UHGV virus genome: UHGV-0315882
DNA: 56,283 nt
Source of the DNA: a virus
Strand: one strand, 5' to 3'
Part shown: positions 2,848 through 55,628 of the stretch, piece after piece
Position numbering within the stretch: position 1 is the first letter of the stretch
Layout: every line of letters begins with the position of its first letter
Made by a program: the position numbers and the translations under genes
The notes under the pieces: generated by a model
Told to the model about the DNA's origin: nothing
Databases searched by the model: none
Seen by the model: only the letters and a program-made list of their open reading frames with translations

Positions 2848-3228
2848 TCAGTTAATTTTGAAAATTGTCACATATCCGTCACTGCCGATTATTTGAGATA
2901 CTCCAGCTTTTTCCACTGAATAGCCCATATTTTCAAGATGATAAACAGCATCATCATAACCATATGCGCCACCCTGATAACGTCTCTTATCGCATCTTAT
3001 CAGGTTTTTACCACGTCCTGCAAGTGCATTCAGTACAGCTTTTTCACTTGATAGCATACCATCTAACATGGTTGCCGTGTAATGGTTGATTCTATTCCCA
3101 TTTACATCATACTTAAAATTGAATGCGTGAACAACGATAATGTTACCTTTAAAATTTTCATCAAGTGACTTCTCCAGTGCGTTGCGAAAGTTGTCTTTGT
3201 TGATGAATTTAGGTGCACGATATGCCAT
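2848..3228 (-). CDS. hypothetical protein (126 aa)
   Basis: ORF with cassette-borne RBS. Confidence 0.55.
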   Translation of the reverse strand: MAYRAPKFINKDNFRNALEKSLDENFKGNIIVVHAFNFKYDVNGNRINHYTATMLDGMLSSEKAVLNALAGRGKNLIRCDKRRYQGGAYGYDDAVYHLENMGYSVEKAGVSQIIGSDGYVTIFKIN

Positions 3229-3318
3229 TTTTGAATCTCCTAGTTTAAGGGTTATTTAGTAAAGCTCTTTATCTGGGGCTTACTTTATCGAACTATAAGC
3301 CCCTTGTAAAGTACTTTA
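3229..3318 (-). promoter_or_regulatory. Early-gene cassette type 2
   Basis: Stem 3275-3282/3296-3303; loop identical to the copy at 2759-2847. Confidence 0.5.
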
Positions 3319-3525
3319 TTAGATATCGTAGTAATAAACTGCTGTCTGTCTTATGTGCTTTCTTGTATTTCTTGTAAGGTAGCAATTAGAATTAATAGCC
3401 GTTTCTACATAGTTGCAGTAGTCAGCTTCTGATATTCTGGACCATGCGCCACATACTTGCATGTAAAAACGTTTTACCTTTGTGTTAACGTTAGTTGTAA
3501 CCATCAATTCACGACTATAAAGCAT
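3319..3525 (-). CDS. hypothetical protein (68 aa)
   Basis: ORF with GGAGA RBS after cassette 3526-3606. Confidence 0.45.
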   Translation of the reverse strand: MLYSRELMVTTNVNTKVKRFYMQVCGAWSRISEADYCNYVETAINSNCYLTRNTRKHIRQTAVYYYDI

Positions 3526-3606
3526 TTTCGATTCTCCAGTTTAGGAAGTGGGCTTGCTTGCCCGTCTGATGCAAATATTAGATAACCATACTCAAAGAGT
3601 CAATAG
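3526..3606 (-). promoter_or_regulatory. Early-gene cassette variant (TTGACT, 17 bp, TAATAT, short GGGC/GCCC hairpin, RBS)
   Basis: Same architecture as type 1 with a different, weaker hairpin (3550-3563). Confidence 0.4.
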
Positions 3607-3780
3607 GAATTTTAAAAATATTTTTGGCAAAAATGTAATGAAACGGGTGCGCGCGACTACCACAAAACAGAACTACAATCAAGAATTATTTTTCAATCCG
3701 CTACAAATTTTTCTGTTGACTTTTATTTCCAGATGTGGTAGCCTTGTGAGAAATGGCGACATCCCCACCTGCACCCACCT

Positions 3781-3963
3781 ACCTGCACAATTCTAAAATG
3801 ATTTTTCTTGCCCGACCTGATTTTTCTCTGCACGTTTTGAAAATGAAAAAGCTCTTTGGAGATTACCTGCACAGTTTGAAAATGAATTTTCTCTTTGGAG
3901 TTCAAAATTTTCTCTACAGATTTCTCTATAGAAATATACCTGCACAATTCTGAAATGAAAAAG
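3781..3963. repeat. Four direct copies of a ~22-26 bp motif in noncoding DNA
   Basis: Copies at 3781-3802, 3827-3851, 3865-3886, 3938-3963 (ACCTGCACA[A/G]TT[C/T]T[A/G]AAATGA); CTCTTTGGAG also occurs twice. Confidence 0.6.
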
Positions 3964-4031
3964 CCCTCCTTACCTGAAAAATTTACCAGATAAGAAAGGC
4001 TTAGTCTATTGTGAATATCCTACGAAGTTTC

Positions 4032-4817
4032 TTAGTTCTTTGCGTCTAAGAAGGTAAGCTCTGGTGAAGAGAAAACCGTCTCGATATCCTCATCAGTTCT
4101 TGCATAGATGTAAGCATCTGCATCACTGCCAAATGTTACTGCAATCCTGTGATTGCTCTTCGACAGGTGGGTAACTAGAGCGTTACTTAGAGACATCTTT
4201 TCAACCGGAGGGTTACTTTGATGTATCTTGCCTTTTCTTCGTCTGAAGAGGGTAACTACATCATTAGTGAACACTACTACACCAGCAAAGTATTCTGGTT
4301 CACAGTAGTTCTTCCAACCTGAGCGTAACTTGTGGTACATCTCTCCTTCATAGACATACAGATACACATCTACACTCTTCATCACCTGATTAATGATGAC
4401 TGTGACGGCTTGAGAGTCTAGTCCACCGATACCTGCACCAATCATAGGTAACCCAACTTTCTTCAACTGATTGACTTCACAGTATCTGTTAAGTTGTTTC
4501 AAAGATGATTCTAAAGCACTGTATCGGGCATCTTTACCAGTCTTAAGCTGAGTGTAAAGGTTAGCTATACGGCCTTGTTCTAAACGTGCTACAGAGAAAT
4601 TGCCTAGTAAATTTTCACAGGGTTTGTGACCTATGCCACCTGCATACAGATAAACTTCTGTATCGGTCTCATATGCTTTTGGGTAAAGTTTAGAAATCTT
4701 GTCAGCGATACCTGCACCCATTAAGTTCATACAGTTGCAACCGTGACCAATGATATCAAACTTACCTTTATCAAATGCGGAGAAGATATCCCCATTGATG
4801 ATTTTTACAATACCCAT
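4032..4817 (-). CDS. TARG1/OARD1-like macrodomain protein with unknown C-terminal domain (261 aa)
   Basis: N-terminal ~150 aa carry GDIF...HGCNCMNLMGAGIA...LPMIGAGIGGLD, matching TARG1-type macrodomain hallmarks recalled from memory; GGGAGAGA RBS. Confidence 0.6.
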   Translation of the reverse strand: MGIVKIINGDIFSAFDKGKFDIIGHGCNCMNLMGAGIADKISKLYPKAYETDTEVYLYAGGIGHKPCENLLGNFSVARLEQGRIANLYTQLKTGKDARYSALESSLKQLNRYCEVNQLKKVGLPMIGAGIGGLDSQAVTVIINQVMKSVDVYLYVYEGEMYHKLRSGWKNYCEPEYFAGVVVFTNDVVTLFRRRKGKIHQSNPPVEKMSLSNALVTHLSKSNHRIAVTFGSDADAYIYARTDEDIETVFSSPELTFLDAKN

Positions 4818-5018
4818 TTAGCATCTCTCCCAAGATTCTTTATCTTCTGAAGGTTTTACACGTTGTCCTTCGTGGTCTACCCAGATACATCCACAACCTT
4901 CACAGATTACTGGCATTGCATAGCCAGCTTTAAAGTCATCTTCAGTGATAAGACCTTTTAAGTCACCTGTATCACGTCCGAACATTTCGATAGCACAGTC
5001 TTTGCAGAAGTCAGCCAT
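4818..5018 (-). CDS. small Cys-rich protein, putative zinc-binding (66 aa)
   Basis: CKDC...CEGCGC; start placed at the internal ATG (MADF) with AGAGG RBS because the track start is a GTG. Confidence 0.4.
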   Translation of the reverse strand: MADFCKDCAIEMFGRDTGDLKGLITEDDFKAGYAMPVICEGCGCIWVDHEGQRVKPSEDKESWERC

Positions 5019-5244
5019 GAATAATTGCCTCTTGAATGATGATGCCTTTACCACAACGACTTTTAAAATCTTCTAATGGTTCAGAGAAGAAGTCACGGAA
5101 ATGGTTACTGCACTCACGTTTTATCACCTTCTTGTAAGTTAACACATCTTCTTCTGCAAACGGGATGACTTCATGTCTCCCTTTGAATACTGCTGAACGT
5201 ACAATCTTGCGGGTCTTTTTATCTCTGGCTAGTATTACTTTCAT
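5011..5244 (-). CDS. hypothetical protein (77 aa)
   Basis: ORF in tight same-strand array. Confidence 0.45.
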   Translation of the reverse strand: MKVILARDKKTRKIVRSAVFKGRHEVIPFAEEDVLTYKKVIKRECSNHFRDFFSEPLEDFKSRCGKGIIIQEAIIHG

Positions 5245-5551
5245 AGTTTACCTTCTCAGTTAGCTCATACAAGTCAACATGCTCAATGCTATCAATGTTG
5301 ATACCAATCTTTTTGAAGCGTTCTATCACTTCGTTGTCAGTCATCCATATCAGACACCAATGATTATGGATGGATTCTTCAAGAAGGTCAACACAGTCTT
5401 TAAAAGTTTTTGTATCACTTCTTGTTCCGACTACTGCGATTGTCCCATACAACCACTTACCATTGCCATAAGATACTTGTGCTACGCCAACTTCTTTATC
5501 TTTCTCGTAGTAAACGGCTACAAAGTCTCTTCCATTAATCTGCATAGTCAC
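5219..5551 (-). CDS. hypothetical protein (110 aa)
   Basis: ORF in tight same-strand array. Confidence 0.5.
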   Translation of the reverse strand: MTMQINGRDFVAVYYEKDKEVGVAQVSYGNGKWLYGTIAVVGTRSDTKTFKDCVDLLEESIHNHWCLIWMTDNEVIERFKKIGINIDSIEHVDLYELTEKVNYESNTSQR

Positions 5552-5817
5552 TTCCTCGTTTTAAGAACTGCTAAGATTTCTTTAGAGTCTGGTAAGAACC
5601 ATGTGTAGTGATTCTCTTTGATTTCTGGATGAGTGTCAACCTTTATTTTGCACTCTTTACCAACATGCTTAAGCTGTGCTGTGACACCTTGCATAAAGAT
5701 ATGACACATCACGTTATCCATAATGGTTGGTGAGAAATCAACCCGCATATAAGTTTCTTTTGGTCGTGGTAGCAGTAAATACCCTTCTACATAGAAAGTA
5801 TCTTCATTCTCTGTCAT
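5548..5817 (-). CDS. hypothetical protein (89 aa)
   Basis: ATGA start/stop overlap with the upstream gene. Confidence 0.5.
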   Translation of the reverse strand: MTENEDTFYVEGYLLLPRPKETYMRVDFSPTIMDNVMCHIFMQGVTAQLKHVGKECKIKVDTHPEIKENHYTWFLPDSKEILAVLKTRK

Positions 5818-6083
5818 TGCTGTTTGTTTCCTAATAAAATCATATCAATAAGGTTATTAGCTTTGATTGTGCACTGGTAAAAACCATCACGATAAAACTC
5901 AAGGGCTGCTGCCACATCACTACCAGTATTACCTTTGACAGTGAATCTTGACTCTTCTTGAGTGTACTTGTCACTCTCACTTACTTGGGAGTTTTTGAAT
6001 GTACTGTTCACTTTGTTCGTTGAACACCCTGACATAATTATCAGTAACACAAACATTATAAAACTCTGGCTTAGTCTTTTCAT
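5814..6083 (-). CDS. putative outer-membrane lipoprotein, o-spanin-like (89 aa)
   Basis: Signal peptide with lipobox-like IMSGC; start lies within the 3' end of the upstream membrane/coiled-coil gene, as in overlapping Rz/Rz1 pairs. Confidence 0.45.
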   Translation of the reverse strand: MKRLSQSFIMFVLLIIMSGCSTNKVNSTFKNSQVSESDKYTQEESRFTVKGNTGSDVAAALEFYRDGFYQCTIKANNLIDMILLGNKQQ

Positions 6084-6324
6084 ATGTTATTACCTCTTTT
6101 GTGTGCTTATTCTTAGCAAGCACATCTTTCAAATCATTTTTGTAATTGGTGCTGAGTGTGGCTAAACCTTCCTGATAAGCATCTTTGGCAACACTTATTA
6201 GTTTCTCATTATTTAGCTCAGCTTCAGCAACTTGGTAGTCTCTGTAAGAGTATCCTCCCCAGACACCTGCTCCAACTAAGAAAACAATTATGAAAGTAGC
6301 TTGGCAGAACTCTTTAAATGTCAT
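5977..6324 (-). CDS. putative i-spanin-like protein (115 aa)
   Basis: N-terminal transmembrane helix followed by a charged, helical periplasmic region; overlaps the lipoprotein gene. Confidence 0.45.
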   Translation of the reverse strand: MTFKEFCQATFIIVFLVGAGVWGGYSYRDYQVAEAELNNEKLISVAKDAYQEGLATLSTNYKNDLKDVLAKNKHTKEVITYEKTKPEFYNVCVTDNYVRVFNEQSEQYIQKLPSK

Positions 6325-6340
6325 TTAACAATCTCCTGAA

Positions 6341-6366
6341 ATGAAAAAGGCTCCCGAAGGAGCCTG
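6341..6366 (-). terminator. Intrinsic terminator
   Basis: GGCTCC-cgaa-GGAGCC stem-loop followed by a T-run on the minus strand. Confidence 0.6.
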
Positions 6367-6376
6367 TATCTTAACC

Positions 6377-6841
6377 TTAACTGAGGACTTTAGCAAGGAT
6401 ATTCGCAGCCATCGAAGAAGCTTTTGCAGCAGCAACTACGCCAGCTTTGACAGTGCCATCCTTAATAGCAGATACCGTTGCAGCATCAGTAAAGAGGTAA
6501 GTGATTGTTTTAGAACCACTTGTAAAGGAAAGCATAAGAGTAGTTTCCAGATTGAAAGAGCGATACGGAGCACCTTCTTTAACGATACCTTCAGCACCTA
6601 ACTCTGAAGCCTTACCCATATCATAAATAGTCATCAGGTTTTCTTTGTGTGCAGTCGTTGAACCAGCACCTTTTACGTGCTTTTTAACATTCAACAATGC
6701 ACGATATTCACGAATGCTGCCATCAGCTTTTACATTAACAGCACGAAAAATTTTACCTTCAAAGTTACCTTGAATCAATTTACGAACTACTACAGATTTG
6801 TTTGTCGTATCGTCCAGTGCTACCGTAATGATATTGTTCAT
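6377..6841 (-). CDS. hypothetical protein (154 aa)
   Basis: ORF with its own downstream terminator; Ala/Gly/Thr-rich. Confidence 0.55.
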   Translation of the reverse strand: MNNIITVALDDTTNKSVVVRKLIQGNFEGKIFRAVNVKADGSIREYRALLNVKKHVKGAGSTTAHKENLMTIYDMGKASELGAEGIVKEGAPYRSFNLETTLMLSFTSGSKTITYLFTDAATVSAIKDGTVKAGVVAAAKASSMAANILAKVLS

Positions 6842-43180: not shown

Positions 43181-43212
43181 AAAAAAGGCTCCCGTAAAAA
43201 GGAGCCTTAAAC
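43181..43212. terminator. Bidirectional intrinsic terminator between convergent genes
   Basis: A6-GGCTCC-cgtaaaaa-GGAGCC-TT; T-run on the minus strand, weaker U-tract on the plus strand. Confidence 0.55.
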
Positions 43213-43213
43213 T

Positions 43214-43585
43214 TTATTTTTCAGTATTCTTTGTGTTCTTTTCAGTAATAGCTTGGAGGGCTGATACTGATTGAGCCAGATTATTCACACTGTCAGAGAA
43301 TTTATCAAGGGTTTTAGTAAGTTTTGCGTTTTCACCCTTAACATTCTCTAACTGAACTTTCTGGTTCTCCATCCCTAGCTGAATCAGTCTCATGTCAGAC
43401 TGTAAATCACGAATAGCTGAATAGTTACTTTTGGAATAATTATCTAGCTGCTGTAACTTTGTTGTGACAGACACTTCTTGTTTACCACTTGAAACTTGCA
43501 TAGTGGTATACATCCCAATAACACTAAAAATACCAACTACAATTGCACCAATATTATTTTTAAAAGCTTCCTCTAGCCACTTCAT
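43214..43585 (-). CDS. membrane-anchored coiled-coil protein (123 aa)
   Basis: N-terminal transmembrane helix then heptad-like region. Confidence 0.45.
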   Translation of the reverse strand: MKWLEEAFKNNIGAIVVGIFSVIGMYTTMQVSSGKQEVSVTTKLQQLDNYSKSNYSAIRDLQSDMRLIQLGMENQKVQLENVKGENAKLTKTLDKFSDSVNNLAQSVSALQAITEKNTKNTEK

Positions 43586-43780
43586 TTATTTCTCCCCCTT
43601 AAAAGCTTTTTCTAAGTTATCTACGAACTCATCATCAATAGGTGTGTCTGTTTTACTCGCAAGGTATCTTGCAAGCTTAAAGAACACTTTCTCAATCATG
43701 TATTCACTTAGAAGGGATAAAATGAGTTTCCAGAAGAAGCTACCTAGATTTTTTAGAAGAATTGCTAGGATTGTAGGCAT
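43586..43780 (-). CDS. small membrane protein (64 aa)
   Basis: Hydrophobic N-terminus; GAGGTGAT RBS. Confidence 0.4.
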   Translation of the reverse strand: MPTILAILLKNLGSFFWKLILSLLSEYMIEKVFFKLARYLASKTDTPIDDEFVDNLEKAFKGEK

Positions 43781-43859
43781 TTAATCACCTCATCAGCCAA
43801 GATGGTGAGAATACCCATAAAGAATATTAACACCATCTTAACAATCAGTCAACAAGGGA

Positions 43860-46391
43860 TTAAGCAGTTCTTACCCAAGCCATTAACTTGTAGAACTGGT
43901 TAGTAACACTAAATGCTGAACCAGAACCTGTGCCACCAGTATTACCACTAACTGTATGAGTGTGAGCACCAATAGCTATTGCGTGAGCATGTCCCCCACC
44001 GAGGTCAGTAGAACCACTTACAGAGTGTGTGTGAGCACCATCACCTTCCGTCCACCCAACATGTGTTTGAGCAGAGTTTGATGAAGCTACACGACCATTT
44101 GGTACGTTAGCGTTATCACCTTGTGAGATTCTATGTGCGTGGTATCCAGCAGAGTTAGTAGAACCACTTACAGCGTGTGAGTGAGCACCATTGACAACAG
44201 TTTCTTTTACACCATAATCAAAAGATGAAGTGGTAGCAGAGAAACTATGGGTGTGTGACGGTAAGTTACCAACAGATAACACCACAGAGTCTGAACCACC
44301 TGTTGTAGCAACATCTGAACCATCTGCTGCTGCAATCCTGATAGTCCTACCAACACCATTGTTAAGGTACGTCCAAGTTAACCCAGGAAGTGCTGTATTA
44401 GGGTCAACATTACTGTTAAACCACGTTACAATACCTACTGGATAGATTTTGTTAAGGTCTGTAGAGTCACTGATTGCTGTTGCAATCTTCTGGTCAGTCT
44501 CAGCTTTAGTGTATGCACCAATATCTGAAGGGGTTGGCTTCAAAATACTCGTGTAATAGTGAGCAATTGTCCCAGCAACATAGCCAGATGGAGAGCTGTC
44601 AGAGGTCTCTGGTGTCTCAAACAACTGGACTGTTGCATTATCTGATGCCTGAACCCTAGCTGTCGTAGCGTTTTGATAGCCACCAACATTGCAATAAATA
44701 TCATAATTATCACCAGACGTATTAACATAACCAATTTGGTCTACAACACCATTTGGTGAGTTTTTCCATGCAACAACATTTAACCCTTTTGGATTACCAT
44801 TCCCTGTTCTGAGAACAATCTCTGTCTTACAGGCTTGGTCTGTAGCACCATAGTTGAAACCAGACCCACCAAATAGCTCAATTACGGCTGTTGCTGTCCC
44901 TTGTGGCATGGTGACTGTAGCAATCTTAGCCCATTTACCACCAGCATTCTGGTTAAAGCCAGTACTTCTTACTCTCAGGTATCTATTATCGGCAGAAGTT
45001 TTATTATAATACCTGTCGTCAATGTTACTCCAATCAGAAGGTTTAACTTGACCATTGATTCTAACAGTTTTATTTAGAAAAAAGTCATCTTGCATAAAAA
45101 GAGTGGTCCCAGTTTTATCATTGTGGATAATGAGTTTAGATGGGTTTTCTCTCTCGCCATTCCCGATGAACCACCTTCTCACATTATCAGCGTTATAACC
45201 AGCAAAGTATAGTGCATTATCCTGAACAGTGTTTCTTAGCTGTAACGATAGGTCATCTTGGGTAATAACTTGTGTAGACCTGAAAATGTTCATGTTACTG
45301 AGTTTAGCAAGATTACTCAAAGTTCCTGCCGGAATGTATCTAGAATCAATGTTACTCCAATCAGAAGGTTTAACTTGACCATTGATTCTAACAGTTTTGC
45401 TCATGGCAATAGTGTTACCTAGTGAGACTTGTGTTTTTGTTAGATAGTTATAGATTTTTAAAATGTTCTCATCACCGTCATTACCAATGTACCACTTATA
45501 ATTCCCATCTGACTTTCTTGCTCGGATATATAAAGAGGGAGCAGTGTCCACATTTTGCAGAGTGATGGCTTCAGCATTCTTCTTAGCAACAAAATTAGAG
45601 AAAGTGTTAGTACCAGTAAAAGTGTTATTACCAGCTAACTGCGCAAATCTCTGATTAGCTGCTGTCTGGGTAAAATACCTAGCATCTAAGTTAGCAAAAC
45701 TTGAAGGCTGAACTTGGCCAGCAATTTGAAGAGTTCTGTTGACTGTCACCAAATTCTCTAAAATAGCAATTGAAACGTCAGACTTTACATTCTTCAATAC
45801 AAGATTATTTGTACCCCTATTATCATTACCTAGATACCATCTGTTAGTACCATCTGCATCTTGACCACGAAGATAGAGTGGAGCACCTTGAGTGATATTT
45901 TTGATAATGAGTGCTTCATTGTCAGAGAGGATAGCTTGAGTACCTCTAAAGGTGTTATTTACAGCAAGTCTTGCATATCTTGCATCATTCTCTTTATTAG
46001 TTCTCATACCAAGCTCATTAGGACTTGGCTTATTCAGAGTATGATAAACGGTTGCCGACCTTGAAGCATCTGCAATAGTCAGTTTAAGGCCATTTGCGTT
46101 AATTTTAAAAGTCTTTAAAACATCCCCAATATTAATCTCAGAAGAGCCTGTTGGGTTAAATACTACCTTACCACCATAAAGTAACTTAACAATCCCTAAG
46201 TCACCTGTCATAGTGCTACCAGCAATCTGAACAAATCTCTCAAGTTTAAAAGATGCTAAGAAGTCTTGATAGGTCATTCGACGGTCTTCATCACCTAGCA
46301 TTTCAGGTCTCTTTTTAACCCTGACATGAAGAAGGTCATCTGAACGGATTGTATCGATTGAGTTTAATTCACTCAACTTGTAATCTGCCAT
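43860..46391 (-). CDS. Tail fiber protein with His-rich C-terminal tip (843 aa)
   Basis: C-terminal HxH repeats (HTHSF, AHSHAV, HAHRI, AHTHSV, HAHAI, AHTHTV) as in metal-binding fiber tips; internal ~50 bp DNA repeat (45021-45071 and 45346-45397). Confidence 0.75.
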   Translation of the reverse strand: MADYKLSELNSIDTIRSDDLLHVRVKKRPEMLGDEDRRMTYQDFLASFKLERFVQIAGSTMTGDLGIVKLLYGGKVVFNPTGSSEINIGDVLKTFKINANGLKLTIADASRSATVYHTLNKPSPNELGMRTNKENDARYARLAVNNTFRGTQAILSDNEALIIKNITQGAPLYLRGQDADGTNRWYLGNDNRGTNNLVLKNVKSDVSIAILENLVTVNRTLQIAGQVQPSSFANLDARYFTQTAANQRFAQLAGNNTFTGTNTFSNFVAKKNAEAITLQNVDTAPSLYIRARKSDGNYKWYIGNDGDENILKIYNYLTKTQVSLGNTIAMSKTVRINGQVKPSDWSNIDSRYIPAGTLSNLAKLSNMNIFRSTQVITQDDLSLQLRNTVQDNALYFAGYNADNVRRWFIGNGERENPSKLIIHNDKTGTTLFMQDDFFLNKTVRINGQVKPSDWSNIDDRYYNKTSADNRYLRVRSTGFNQNAGGKWAKIATVTMPQGTATAVIELFGGSGFNYGATDQACKTEIVLRTGNGNPKGLNVVAWKNSPNGVVDQIGYVNTSGDNYDIYCNVGGYQNATTARVQASDNATVQLFETPETSDSSPSGYVAGTIAHYYTSILKPTPSDIGAYTKAETDQKIATAISDSTDLNKIYPVGIVTWFNSNVDPNTALPGLTWTYLNNGVGRTIRIAAADGSDVATTGGSDSVVLSVGNLPSHTHSFSATTSSFDYGVKETVVNGAHSHAVSGSTNSAGYHAHRISQGDNANVPNGRVASSNSAQTHVGWTEGDGAHTHSVSGSTDLGGGHAHAIAIGAHTHTVSGNTGGTGSGSAFSVTNQFYKLMAWVRTA

Positions 46392-46437
46392 TATAAATTT
46401 TCCTCTTAAAAGGGGCTATCAAGCCCCTGTAAAGAAA

Positions 46438-47610
46438 TTAAGCTGTTCTCTGCCATACATACAGTACAAAGGATGGCTGCTCAATATTAACCGCCTGACC
46501 TCCACCAACACTATTCGTATTGCCACTATGTGTATGTTCAGAAGAAGAAACTGTCACAGTACCACTGTGTGTATGTGAACCAATACCAACTGTGTGGCTG
46601 TGAGCACCAATACCAACTGTGTGGCTGTGGTCACCAGATGCACCAGATGTAACGCTAAAACTGTGTGAGTGTGCACCGTCACTAGATGTCCTTGATGTTC
46701 TCCATGCACCACCACCATCAGAGTCAGCTACAGCATTACCAGTACCATCATTTTCTCTAGGGTACACATCATGGTTGTGAGTACCATTTGTACTTGTGTT
46801 ACCTGATACGTTGTGTGTATGGTTACCAGTTGTATTGGTATCTTTTGTTCCATAGTCAAAAGAGTTGGTAGTCTTAGTCCCATAGTCAAAAGCTGAAATT
46901 GACACAGTTGCATTATGGGTGTGACCGCCACCACTAAGAGACACAGAGTGTGAGTGTTGAGGCATGTTATTAACTGACAAAGTGACAGTTGAAGCACCAA
47001 ATACAGAGCCTGCTGGTCTTGTATCAGAGTCATAACCAACCAATGCCCTACCTTTTGAAACTAACTCCCAAGTACCTCCACAAATTAAATATGTAGAAGG
47101 GTTTGCAGAGTTCATGGAAAGATGGATAGTACCTACTGGATAAGAAGCCTGAACAGCCTTGTACAAGTTATTTACTGCTCTTGCTGTAGCATACTTATCT
47201 GCATCTTCGTTATAAAGGTTAGATGTTGTCCAGTTCTGAACATTACTTAGACCAACCTGTGCCTTAGTTGTATTGTGTGGGTTGCTCTTGTCCTGAATAT
47301 GCTGTTGAACAAGATTATTAACCTCTTCTGAAGACATAATCTGTAGATTTGCTCTTGCCTGAGCTACATTAGTAACATCTGATAAGTTATTTGCAGCAAC
47401 TAACTGAAGAGCATTAATAACATTATCTAAACCAATTTGTGTTTTAGTAACACCATGAGGGTTATTTCTTAGGCTTGAGTGTGGAGCAAGTAATTGCTCA
47501 AGAGTACATCTCTTATCTTCAATACCCTGCTTAAGATGGAAGATATCACTAAGGCCAATTGGTAAGGCTGCTTGAGGCAAGGCACTAATTTGAATTTCAC
47601 CTACTGCCAT
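46438..47610 (-). CDS. Tail fiber protein, paralogous His-rich tip (390 aa)
   Basis: C-terminal HSHSVS, GHTHNA, NHTHNV, THNHDV, AHSHSF, DHSHTV, AHSHTV, SHTHSG, EHTHSG repeats; C-terminus WQRTA parallels the 843 aa fiber (WVRTA). Confidence 0.7.
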   Translation of the reverse strand: MAVGEIQISALPQAALPIGLSDIFHLKQGIEDKRCTLEQLLAPHSSLRNNPHGVTKTQIGLDNVINALQLVAANNLSDVTNVAQARANLQIMSSEEVNNLVQQHIQDKSNPHNTTKAQVGLSNVQNWTTSNLYNEDADKYATARAVNNLYKAVQASYPVGTIHLSMNSANPSTYLICGGTWELVSKGRALVGYDSDTRPAGSVFGASTVTLSVNNMPQHSHSVSLSGGGHTHNATVSISAFDYGTKTTNSFDYGTKDTNTTGNHTHNVSGNTSTNGTHNHDVYPRENDGTGNAVADSDGGGAWRTSRTSSDGAHSHSFSVTSGASGDHSHTVGIGAHSHTVGIGSHTHSGTVTVSSSEHTHSGNTNSVGGGQAVNIEQPSFVLYVWQRTA

Positions 47611-47612
47611 TA

Positions 47613-55628
<8,016 letters not shown>

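What the first reader, a model, noticed from the sequence alone, without database searches (positions are those of the whole stretch)
43860..47610. Two paralogous tail fibers with His-rich tips and an internal exact repeat
Both fiber proteins end in dense HxH arrays and near-identical C-termini (WVRTA, WQRTA), indicating duplicated receptor-binding tips built on a shared metal-binding fold. The larger gene has an exact ~50 bp DNA repeat 325 bp apart, marking tandem domain duplication that could mediate length variation.
Basis: seen in the sequence. Interest (0 to 1): 0.5.

Follow-up and report, generated by a model that had tools for sequence, protein, structure and literature searches.

The report
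Felix O1-type phage tail fibre pair
These are the already-described short and long tail fibres of a Felix O1-like coliphage, both ending in a T4 gp37-type histidine "needle" tip; the exact 53-bp repeat is a small homogenised patch at a conserved joint between old, diverged shaft domains and shows no sign of changing fibre length.

Summary
Two minus-strand genes, 46438-47610 (390 aa) and 43860-46391 (843 aa), end in HxH arrays (9 and 6 motifs) and in ...WQRTA / ...WVRTA. The larger gene carries an exact 53-nt direct repeat, 327 nt start to start and in frame.

The window is a Felixounavirus. The genes are orthologues of Bas63 gp26 (short fibre) and gp27 (long fibre), and of VpaE1 gp74 and gp75. 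Their shared T4 gp37-like tip (collar, HxH needle, head) was published in 2015 and 2025.

Both tips match the T4 gp37 crystal chain 2XGF (E 7e-29 and 1.4e-12) and each other (E 2e-26). The chain folds back, so the variable receptor-contact head lies between the HxH arrays. The conserved C-terminus returns to the collar.

The 53-nt repeat encodes KTVRINGQVKPSDWSNI, the linker ending shaft modules B and C. Those modules are otherwise only about 45% identical in DNA, so the duplication is old. The exact patch most likely reflects recent gene conversion.

All 26 relatives keep three modules. Length differences come from an alternative mid-domain cassette. The gene is a mosaic with breakpoints at the linkers.

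Verdict: ordinary and already known. The homogenised patch is a minor new detail.

The parts
43860..46391 (-). Long tail fibre (LTF) gene, 843 aa; orthologue of Bas63 gp27 / VpaE1 gp75
   Evidence: ORF. phrog_4277 tail fiber, 1228 bits, full length. PF20744 gp37_trimer E 4e-47 in 3 stretches. tblastn 61.6% to the Bas63 tail fiber protein over 100% of the query. Synteny with Bas63.
46438..47610 (-). Short tail fibre (STF) gene, 390 aa; orthologue of Bas63 gp26 / VpaE1 gp74
   Evidence: ORF. phrog_2097, E 4.6e-135. PF21939 Gp10_C E 5e-17. 97.7% aa identity to VpaE1 gp74 and 72.8% to Bas63 gp26.
45972..46391 (-). LTF N-terminal conserved region (aa 1-140), baseplate-binding domain by orthology
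   Evidence: Median 96% aa identity across 24 relatives. The Bas63 paper assigns the N-terminus to baseplate binding.
45738..45971 (-). LTF shaft module A (aa 141-218), hypervariable beta-helix repeat domain
   Evidence: Median 43% identity in relatives, with discrete allele classes (97-100% or about 35%). PF20744 best stretch 159-248.
45399..45641 (-). LTF shaft module B (aa 251-331)
   Evidence: Median 42% identity. 100% to ASO1A, 37% to L003.
45346..45398 (-). Exact repeat copy 1: linker at the end of module B, encodes KTVRINGQVKPSDWSNI(D), aa 332-349
45072..45345 (-). Linker helix plus LTF shaft module C (aa 350-440)
   Evidence: Best identity in the IMG/VR sample is 67%. 93% nt identity to phage P54 (PV390658) over gene nt 994-1373.
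45019..45071 (-). Exact repeat copy 2: linker at the end of module C, aa 441-458
44538..45005 (-). LTF mid domain (aa 463-618), long-form cassette
   Evidence: Present in WIN, L003, L004, L006, L007, L013, L019 and momo. Replaced by shorter unrelated cassettes elsewhere. Residues 487-617 are 30-50% identical to T-even gp37 distal fibre.
44256..44537 (-). LTF collar domain (aa 619-712)
   Evidence: Median 96% identity. PF21939 Gp10_C at 26.1 bits, just under the 27-bit cut-off. Aligns to the STF collar.
43926..44255 (-). LTF needle and head (aa 713-822): 3 ascending and 3 descending HxH, with the variable head at aa 754-786 (window 44034-44132)
   Evidence: 2XGF match at residues 707-822, E 1.4e-12. 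Head median identity 19% versus 94% within its own allele class.
43863..43925 (-). LTF conserved C-terminal return strand (aa 823-843, ...WVRTA)
   Evidence: 95-100% identical in the 24 relatives compared, 100% in 23 of them. Aligns with the T4 gp37 C-terminus ...IVRLA.
46957..47190 (-). STF collar domain (aa 141-218)
   Evidence: PF21939 at residues 154-264. T4 gp10 C-terminal domain chains 5HX2/2FKK, E about 4e-5.
46528..46956 (-). STF needle and head (aa 219-361): 4 ascending and 5 descending HxH, with the variable head at aa 281-313 (window 46672-46770)
   Evidence: 2XGF match at residues 146-362, E 7e-29.
47613..47915 (-). 100-aa protein, orthologue of Bas63 gp25 (LTF platform, T4 gp9-like)
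   Evidence: phrog_4141. Same size and position as bas63_0025. Role taken from the paper.
47915..50244 (-). Baseplate wedge 1 (285 aa) and wedge 2 (489 aa, Baseplate_J)
   Evidence: The sizes match those given for Bas63 wedge 1 and wedge 2.
43799..43839 (-). Hairpin just downstream of the LTF stop, probable transcription terminator
   Evidence: Inverted repeat I8, 15-nt arms, 87% complementary. ASO1A has a terminator annotated at the equivalent place.

Best explanation
The region encodes the two baseplate fibres of a Felixounavirus (Felix O1-like myovirus): a 390-aa short fibre and an 843-aa long fibre. Each is presumed to be a homotrimer (inferred by homology). Each has a conserved N-terminal baseplate-attachment domain and a C-terminal T4 gp37-type receptor-binding tip. 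In that tip the chain passes through a collar domain and ascends a six-stranded needle. HxH motifs from the three chains are inferred to coordinate metal ions octahedrally: Fe in T4, and 6 predicted sites in the LTF and 9 in the STF here. The chain then forms a small variable head that contacts the receptor, descends the needle and ends back at the collar. The likely receptor is LPS core sugars, as in related phages. In this phage the two heads differ (40% identity over needle plus head), so the fibres probably read different LPS epitopes. The LTF shaft contains three hypervariable beta-helix repeat modules, separated by conserved linkers (...xTxxIxGQVxPSDWxNxDxRY...), followed by a swappable mid domain. 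The gene is a mosaic assembled by homologous recombination at these conserved linkers. The 53-nt exact repeat is the linker after module B and the linker after module C. It was made identical by a recent short-patch gene conversion, or by the recombination event that installed the P54-like module C. It is a by-product of module shuffling rather than a device for changing repeat number. Shown: gene identity, homology to 2XGF, mosaic structure, uniqueness of the exact patch, and constant module number. Inferred: trimer, metal binding, LPS receptor and the conversion mechanism.
For: Taxon and orthology: 93-96% nt identity to Felixounavirus genomes, with the same gene order as Bas63, ASO1A and VpaE1. 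Tip homology. Published descriptions: VpaE1 gp74/gp75 share the T4 gp37 adhesin region, and Bas63 STF/LTF have collar, HxH needle and head. Receptor: LPS-core mutants (waaV, waaW, waaY) block the related phiWec172-177. Those phages differ by N777S in the 844-aa fibre and K286E in the 390-aa fibre; by the window's numbering I place these in the two head segments. VpaE1 is specific for truncated LPS core. Old duplication: modules A, B and C are 51-54% identical in DNA including the linkers. Patch is exceptional: 53/53 against mean 39 and maximum 47 in relatives. No match of 28 nt or more to the 53-mer in 50,697 phage records. P54 carries the same module C (93%), but its two flanking linkers differ from each other. 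Mosaic: per-segment identities switch between about 95% and about 30% independently. Similarity breakpoints fall at gene nt 791, 994-1091, 1333-1387 and 1849-1855, i.e. at the linkers. Module types occur at different positions in different phages, e.g. L006 module C = L017 module A at 89.6%. Constant number: exactly three GQVxP linkers in all 27 LTF genes examined.
Against: Metal binding, trimer state and receptor are not tested here. Single-sequence AlphaFold models of both tips were unusable (pLDDT 36.3 and 32.6), so no independent fold comparison was possible. The donor and direction of the proposed conversion cannot be resolved: the shared 53-mer differs by 5 and 7 nt from the two P54 linkers (counted by eye from the sequences). 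Without reads, an assembly or polishing artefact that homogenised two similar linkers cannot be excluded. The LTF collar hit to PF21939 is 0.9 bits below Pfam's cut-off.
Confidence: 0.85

Rival explanations
1. The 53-bp repeat marks a recent tandem duplication of a shaft domain and acts as a substrate for unequal recombination that varies the number of domains, and so the fibre length.
For: The repeat is direct, exact, in frame and 109 codons apart, so recombination between the copies would give a clean one-module deletion or duplication. Module types have moved between positions in relatives, so out-of-register exchange does happen over evolutionary time.
Against: Outside the patch the two units are about 43% identical in DNA and about 30% in protein. 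All 27 genes examined have exactly three modules. LTF spans in GenBank relatives are 2343-2544 nt, none differing by 327 nt. The Bas63 study found no variable beta-helix repeat number in the genus.
Confidence: 0.07
2. Assembly or consensus-polishing artefact. Reads from two similar linkers were cross-mapped and the consensus was homogenised, so the real genome has two slightly different linkers.
For: The 53-mer, including the unusual QVK codon, is found in no other phage record. Linkers in relatives are already 74-89% alike, which favours mis-mapping of short reads.
Against: The patch has sharp edges and is in frame. Both copies encode a plausible linker peptide. Exact linker matches of 43-49 nt occur in independently assembled relatives, so long identical tracts are a real property of this gene family. 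No read data are available to test this.
Confidence: 0.08
3. The exact repeat is kept identical by selection on the nucleic acid itself. It would be a dedicated recombination or regulatory site, or part of a diversity-generating (template/variable repeat) or invertase system.
For: Codon agreement between linkers of one gene in relatives (67% of same-residue positions) is higher than random codon choice would give.
Against: The repeat is exact, not adenine-biased as in DGR pairs, and direct, not inverted as in shufflons. None of the ORFs scanned in or beside the region matched a reverse transcriptase or invertase, though the rest of the window was not scanned. The identical tract is unique to this genome, whereas a functional site should be conserved across relatives.
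Confidence: 0.02

Closest known systems
Bas63 (Escherichia phage JohannRWettstein) STF gp26 and LTF gp27, cryo-EM, Sci Adv 2025 (PMC12609058)
   Same: Same genus and the same gene order: wedge 2, wedge 1, LTF platform, STF, LTF. Same domain plan: N-terminal baseplate-binding domain, beta-helix repeats with helix-and-turn linkers in the LTF, and a gp37-like collar/needle/head tip in both fibres. LTF has 6 HxH in both.
   Different: The window's STF has 9 HxH against 7 in Bas63, and a different head. LTF is 843 aa against 784 aa because it carries the long mid-domain cassette. LTF identity is only about 59-62% and STF 73%. The exact 53-nt linker repeat is absent from Bas63: its closest linker (C) matches the 53-mer at only 47/53.
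VpaE1 gp74/gp75 (Viruses 2015, PMC4690856) and ASO1A gp74/gp75
   Same: STF is 97-98% identical. LTF N-terminus, collar and C-terminus are conserved. ASO1A shares modules A and B and the LTF head.
   Different: Module C and the mid domain are replaced. The VpaE1 LTF head is the T4 gp37 type, whereas the window's is the RISQGDNANVP type.
T4 gp37 receptor-binding tip (PDB 2XGF)
   Same: Collar, HxH needle, head and return strand, with a C-terminal hydrophobic-x-R-x-A end. Significant sequence homology for both fibres.
   Different: T4 has 7 HxH. Its tip sits on a 1026-aa distal half-fibre joined to gp34-36, and the T4 record annotates gp38 next to it as tail fibre assembly. Here the tip is on single-protein fibres attached directly to the baseplate. 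The two small proteins downstream of the LTF have no assigned PHROG function, and momo and P54 annotate the 123-aa one as holin.
T4 gp34/gp37 rod repeats (Pfam PF20744; PDB 5NXH as cited by the Bas63 paper)
   Same: Three PF20744 stretches in the LTF shaft. The paper likens the LTF beta-helix domains and helix-turn linkers to the gp34 rod.
   Different: Here the repeat modules are hypervariable cassettes flanked by conserved linkers.
Recombination between conserved 'His box' motifs in T-even gp37/gp38 adhesins (Tetart, Desplats and Krisch, J Mol Biol 1998; recalled from memory, not read here)
   Same: Conserved short motifs flank hypervariable segments and serve as crossover points that swap specificity. 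Here both the GQVxPSDW linkers and the HxH boxes flank variable segments, and some relatives share tip sequence between STF and LTF (113-nt exact match in L025).
   Different: The shuffled units here include shaft domains, not only adhesin loops. No experimental recombination data exist for this genus, to my knowledge.

Membership tests
T4 gp37-type receptor-binding tip (collar-needle-head) | Significant sequence homology to the solved tip (2XGF) | tested here: met
   STF E 7e-29 over residues 146-362. LTF E 1.4e-12 over residues 707-822.
T4 gp37-type receptor-binding tip (collar-needle-head) | HxH motifs on both the ascending and descending strands, flanking a short head segment | tested here: met
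   LTF 3+3 and STF 4+5, aligned with the 3+4 of T4.
T4 gp37-type receptor-binding tip (collar-needle-head) | Collar domain of the gp10_C / tail-collar type preceding the needle | tested here: met
   STF PF21939 at 63.5 bits (cut-off 27). LTF at 26.1 bits, marginal, but it aligns to the STF collar.
T4 gp37-type receptor-binding tip (collar-needle-head) | Intertwined homotrimer with octahedral Fe coordination by six His per site | not testable with these tools
   Monomer single-sequence models failed (pLDDT 36 and 33). Inferred from homology and from the Bas63 paper.
T4 gp37-type receptor-binding tip (collar-needle-head) | Dependence on gp38/gp57A-type assembly chaperones | not tested
   The two small proteins downstream of the LTF have no assigned PHROG function, and relatives annotate the 123-aa one as holin. 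The rest of the window was not searched for chaperones.
Felixounavirus LTF/STF (Bas63 gp27/gp26 orthologues) | Synteny: wedge 2, wedge 1, 100-aa LTF platform, STF, LTF, then small proteins and convergent thyA/frd | tested here: met
Felixounavirus LTF/STF (Bas63 gp27/gp26 orthologues) | Conserved N-terminal baseplate-binding region and C-terminal strand | tested here: met
   LTF N-terminus has median 96% identity and the C-terminus 100%. The STF N-terminus is near-invariant.
Felixounavirus LTF/STF (Bas63 gp27/gp26 orthologues) | Presence in the virion as two distinct fibre trimers | not testable with these tools
   Shown for Bas63 by cryo-EM and for VpaE1 by virion MS.
gp34/gp37 rod beta-helix repeats (PF20744) | Repeated domain matching the Pfam model above its cut-off | tested here: met
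   E 4.1e-47, 158.6 bits, 3 stretches.
Contingency-type repeat-number variation | Copy number differs among close relatives or within populations | tested here: not met
   Three modules in 27 of 27 genes. No 327-nt length classes.
Diversity-generating retroelement target | Template/variable repeat pair with adenine-specific differences and a nearby reverse transcriptase | tested here: not met
   The copies are identical. None of the ORFs scanned in or beside the region matched a reverse transcriptase; the rest of the window was not scanned.

The most novel reading that the evidence does not exclude
The conserved GQVxPSDW/helix-turn linkers would be portable recombination joints. They would let Felixounaviruses shuffle discrete beta-helix shaft cassettes in register and out of register, and let STF and LTF trade tips through the HxH boxes. 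The hypervariable shaft modules would themselves be host-range determinants, for example through lateral glycan contacts, rather than passive spacers. The window's 53-nt identical pair would then be a fresh scar of such an event and a live substrate for the next one.
Probability: 0.25. Interest if true: 0.45.

Novelty: already known. Interest (0 to 1): 0.15.

Why it matters
Little is at stake for basic knowledge. The paired gp37-like tips of Felix O1-type phages are published, and the window adds another allele combination: ASO1A-like modules A and B and head, a P54-like module C, and an L003/momo-like mid domain. There are two practical points. First, receptor-contact residues should be sought in the head segments between the HxH arrays (LTF 754-786, STF 281-313), not at the C-termini. 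Second, the LTF is built from discrete cassettes joined at conserved linkers, which gives natural splice points for engineering host range in this therapeutically used genus. The linker homogenisation and the cross-position module transfers are modest new observations about how such fibres evolve.

Tried and rejected
1. Single-sequence AlphaFold2 of the STF tip (aa 140-390) and the LTF tip (aa 619-843) gave mean pLDDT 36.3 and 32.6. The models were unusable, so no fold search was run. Alignments built from fetched loci cannot be submitted to that tool, and I judged a 13-CPU-hour homologue search unjustified for a known family.
2. Megablast of the 53-mer against 50,697 phage records found no match. 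This helped show uniqueness but did not identify a donor.
3. The T4 gp37 tip structure paper (PMC2996694) is not held. Domain logic was taken from the Bas63 paper's summary and from an alignment to T4 gp37 fetched from NC_000866.
4. Recent tandem duplication was rejected on the divergence of the flanks.
5. DGR and shufflon readings were rejected: the repeat is exact and direct, and no RT or invertase matched among the ORFs scanned in or beside the region.
6. The promoter/terminator scan of the region found nothing above shuffle expectation, apart from the thyA/holin bidirectional hairpin.
7. The tRNA scan of the window found none.
8. PDB sequence searches returned no Felixounavirus fibre chains. 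This fits the paper's statement that fibre density was too poor to model.
Full report
**What is there.** Window positions 43860-47610 hold two adjacent minus-strand genes: 46438-47610 (390 aa) and 43860-46391 (843 aa).
- The DNA is 89-95% identical to many Felixounavirus (Ounavirinae, Felix O1-like) genomes such as ASO1A, VpaE1 derivatives and ULIM phages.
- The neighbourhood is the one annotated in those phages. It runs baseplate wedge 2 (489 aa), wedge 1 (285 aa), a 100-aa protein, the 390-aa fibre and the roughly 800-aa fibre. Then come two small proteins and convergent thymidylate synthase / dihydrofolate reductase.
- In Bas63 these are gp23-gp27. Cryo-EM identified gp25 as the LTF platform, gp26 as a 430-Å short tail fibre (STF) and gp27 as a 630-Å long tail fibre (LTF).

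**Check of the observation.**
- The LTF has 6 HxH motifs (residues 713-812) and ends ...AWVRTA.
- The STF has 9 HxH motifs (residues 219-361) and ends ...VWQRTA.
- The exact DNA repeat is real: 53 nt at 45019-45071 and 45346-45398, 327 nt start to start, in frame. Both copies encode KTVRINGQVKPSDWSNI(D).
- Keeping the protein but resampling synonymous codons never gave an internal repeat longer than 32 nt in 300 trials.

**The tips.**
- The two C-terminal regions align at 32% identity, E 2e-26.
- Both match the crystal chain of the T4 gp37 receptor-binding tip, 2XGF (STF E 7e-29, LTF E 1.4e-12). The STF collar also matches the T4 gp10 C-terminal domain.
- An alignment with T4 gp37 785-1026 puts the HxH motifs in register. 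T4 has 3 ascending and 4 descending, the LTF 3+3 and the STF 4+5. A segment of about 33 residues lies between the two sets.
- As the Bas63 paper summarises the T4 structure, the chain goes up the needle, forms the small head that touches the receptor and returns to the collar. The di-histidine motifs coordinate Fe along the needle.
Metal binding itself is inferred.
- The conserved ends WVRTA/WQRTA are the counterpart of T4's ...IVRLA return strand, not the contact surface.
- The contact candidates are LTF 754-786 and STF 281-313. These are the least conserved segments among relatives. The LTF head has median 19% identity but 94% within its own allele class. The STF head occurs in about five discrete types (my reading of the alignment).
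- In phiWec172-177, which depend on LPS outer-core genes, the variants carry N777S in the 844-aa fibre and K286E in the 390-aa fibre. By the window's numbering I place these in the head segments.
- That both fibres share the gp37 adhesin region was already noted for VpaE1 in 2015 and shown structurally for Bas63 in 2025.
- My own structure predictions, single sequence only, failed (pLDDT 36 and 33).

**The repeat.** The LTF shaft has three PF20744 (gp37_trimer) domains, here called modules A, B and C. Each ends in a conserved linker...(K/R)xhxIxGQVxPSD(W/F)xN(L/I)DxRY... [quoted passage not shown] The two 53-nt copies are the linkers after B and after C.
- Outside the patch the B and C units are about 43% identical in DNA and about 30% in protein. 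The domain duplication is therefore ancient, and the exact tract is a local event.
- In 24 relatives the equivalent linker pairs share on average 39 and at most 47 of 53 nt. Exact linker matches of 31-49 nt do occur in some relatives.
- The 53-mer has no match of 28 nt or more in 50,697 phage records.
- Phage P54 carries the same module C (93% over gene nt 994-1373), yet its two flanking linkers differ from each other.
- The most economical reading is a recent short-patch gene conversion, or the recombination that installed module C, in this lineage. An assembly artefact cannot be excluded without reads.

**No length variation by repeat number.**
- All 27 LTF genes examined have exactly three linkers.
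- LTF lengths fall into classes of about 780 and about 845 aa. The alignment shows that the difference is an alternative mid-domain cassette (window aa 463-618), which occurs in at least three unrelated forms.
- GenBank LTF spans are 2343-2544 nt, with none offset by 327 nt.
- The Bas63 authors reached the same conclusion for the genus.

**What the gene looks like instead: a mosaic.**
- Per-segment identities to relatives switch independently between about 95% and about 30%. The window shares modules A and B and the head with ASO1A, module C with P54, and the mid domain with L003, L004 and momo.
- Similarity breakpoints sit at the linkers: gene nt 791, 994-1091, 1333-1387 and 1849-1855.
- Module types also turn up at different positions in different phages. 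L006 module C equals L017 module A at 89.6%, and Bas63 module A resembles the module C of many phages at 60-72%. Out-of-register exchange has therefore occurred while the count stayed at three.
- Some relatives share tip sequence between their own STF and LTF: a 113-nt exact match and 74% identity in L025, and 41 nt and 71% in L018. In the window the two tips are well separated (14 nt, 40%).
- This resembles the His-box-mediated swapping known for T-even adhesins. That comparison comes from memory and was not checked here.

**Verdict.** The fibres and their paired gp37-like tips are already known. The exact repeat is best read as a homogenised linker patch and shows no sign of driving length variation. 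The linker homogenisation, the cross-position module transfers and the STF/LTF tip exchange in relatives are small additions to the picture of fibre mosaicism. Interest is low.

Noticed in passing
L006 and L017 (IMG/VR contigs), LTF genes; Bas63 L026:2501-4855: The same shaft module type sits at different positions in different phages. L006 module C equals L017 module A at 89.6% aa over 77 residues. Bas63 module A is 60-72% identical to the module C of many relatives. This implies out-of-register recombination between linkers with the total kept at three.
   Followed up: partly
L025 (contig the same length as UAB_Phi87), L018, L004: STF and LTF tips: In some relatives the two fibre genes of one phage share tip sequence: a 113-nt exact match and 74% aa identity in L025, 41 nt and 71% in L018, and 66% in L004. 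This suggests gene conversion between the paralogous tips. In the window the figures are only 14 nt and 40%.
   Followed up: partly
L002/L022 (VpaE1) LTF head versus T4 gp37 (L028:4543-7623): The VpaE1 LTF head ([40 protein letters not shown]) is almost the same as the T4 gp37 head. This fits both phages using E. coli B LPS and points to tip exchange between Tequatrovirus and Felixounavirus.
   Followed up: no
window 44538-45005 (LTF aa 463-618): The long-form mid-domain cassette is 30-50% identical to an internal region of T-even gp37 distal fibres (e.g. Sf24 at 48% over residues 487-617). At least two shorter unrelated cassettes occupy this slot in other Felixounaviruses.
   Followed up: partly
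window 46528-46956 (STF needle): The window's STF has 9 HxH motifs. Bas63, momo, L017 and L021 have 7, with a different ascending strand and head. Needle length and the number of predicted metal sites therefore vary within the genus.
   Followed up: partly
window 43214-43780, minus strand: Two small genes (64 aa and 123 aa) follow the LTF. Both have no assigned PHROG function (phrog_402, phrog_4038). The 123-aa one is annotated as holin in momo and P54 and, by my reading of its sequence, has an N-terminal hydrophobic segment followed by a coiled-coil-like region.
   Followed up: no
window 43185-43208: A GC-rich hairpin with T-runs on both strands lies between the convergent thymidylate synthase gene (ends 43177) and the 123-aa gene (ends 43214). 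It is probably a bidirectional terminator. ASO1A has terminators annotated on both strands at the same place.
   Followed up: no
PV390658.1 (phage P54) record: The record is filed under Straboviridae/Tequatrovirus, but its 88-kb genome and fibre locus are Felixounavirus-like. This is probably a taxonomy mislabel in the deposit.
   Followed up: no
L001 (ASO1A) 5402-6574 / 3001-5424: Several annotations and ORF calls (ASO1A; my ORF calls for L022 and L023) start the LTF at an upstream ATG that overlaps the STF, giving 807-810 aa. The conserved start is MADYKL, giving 784-787 aa in those phages.
   Followed up: partly
whole window: ARAGORN finds no tRNA gene in the 56-kb window.
   Followed up: no
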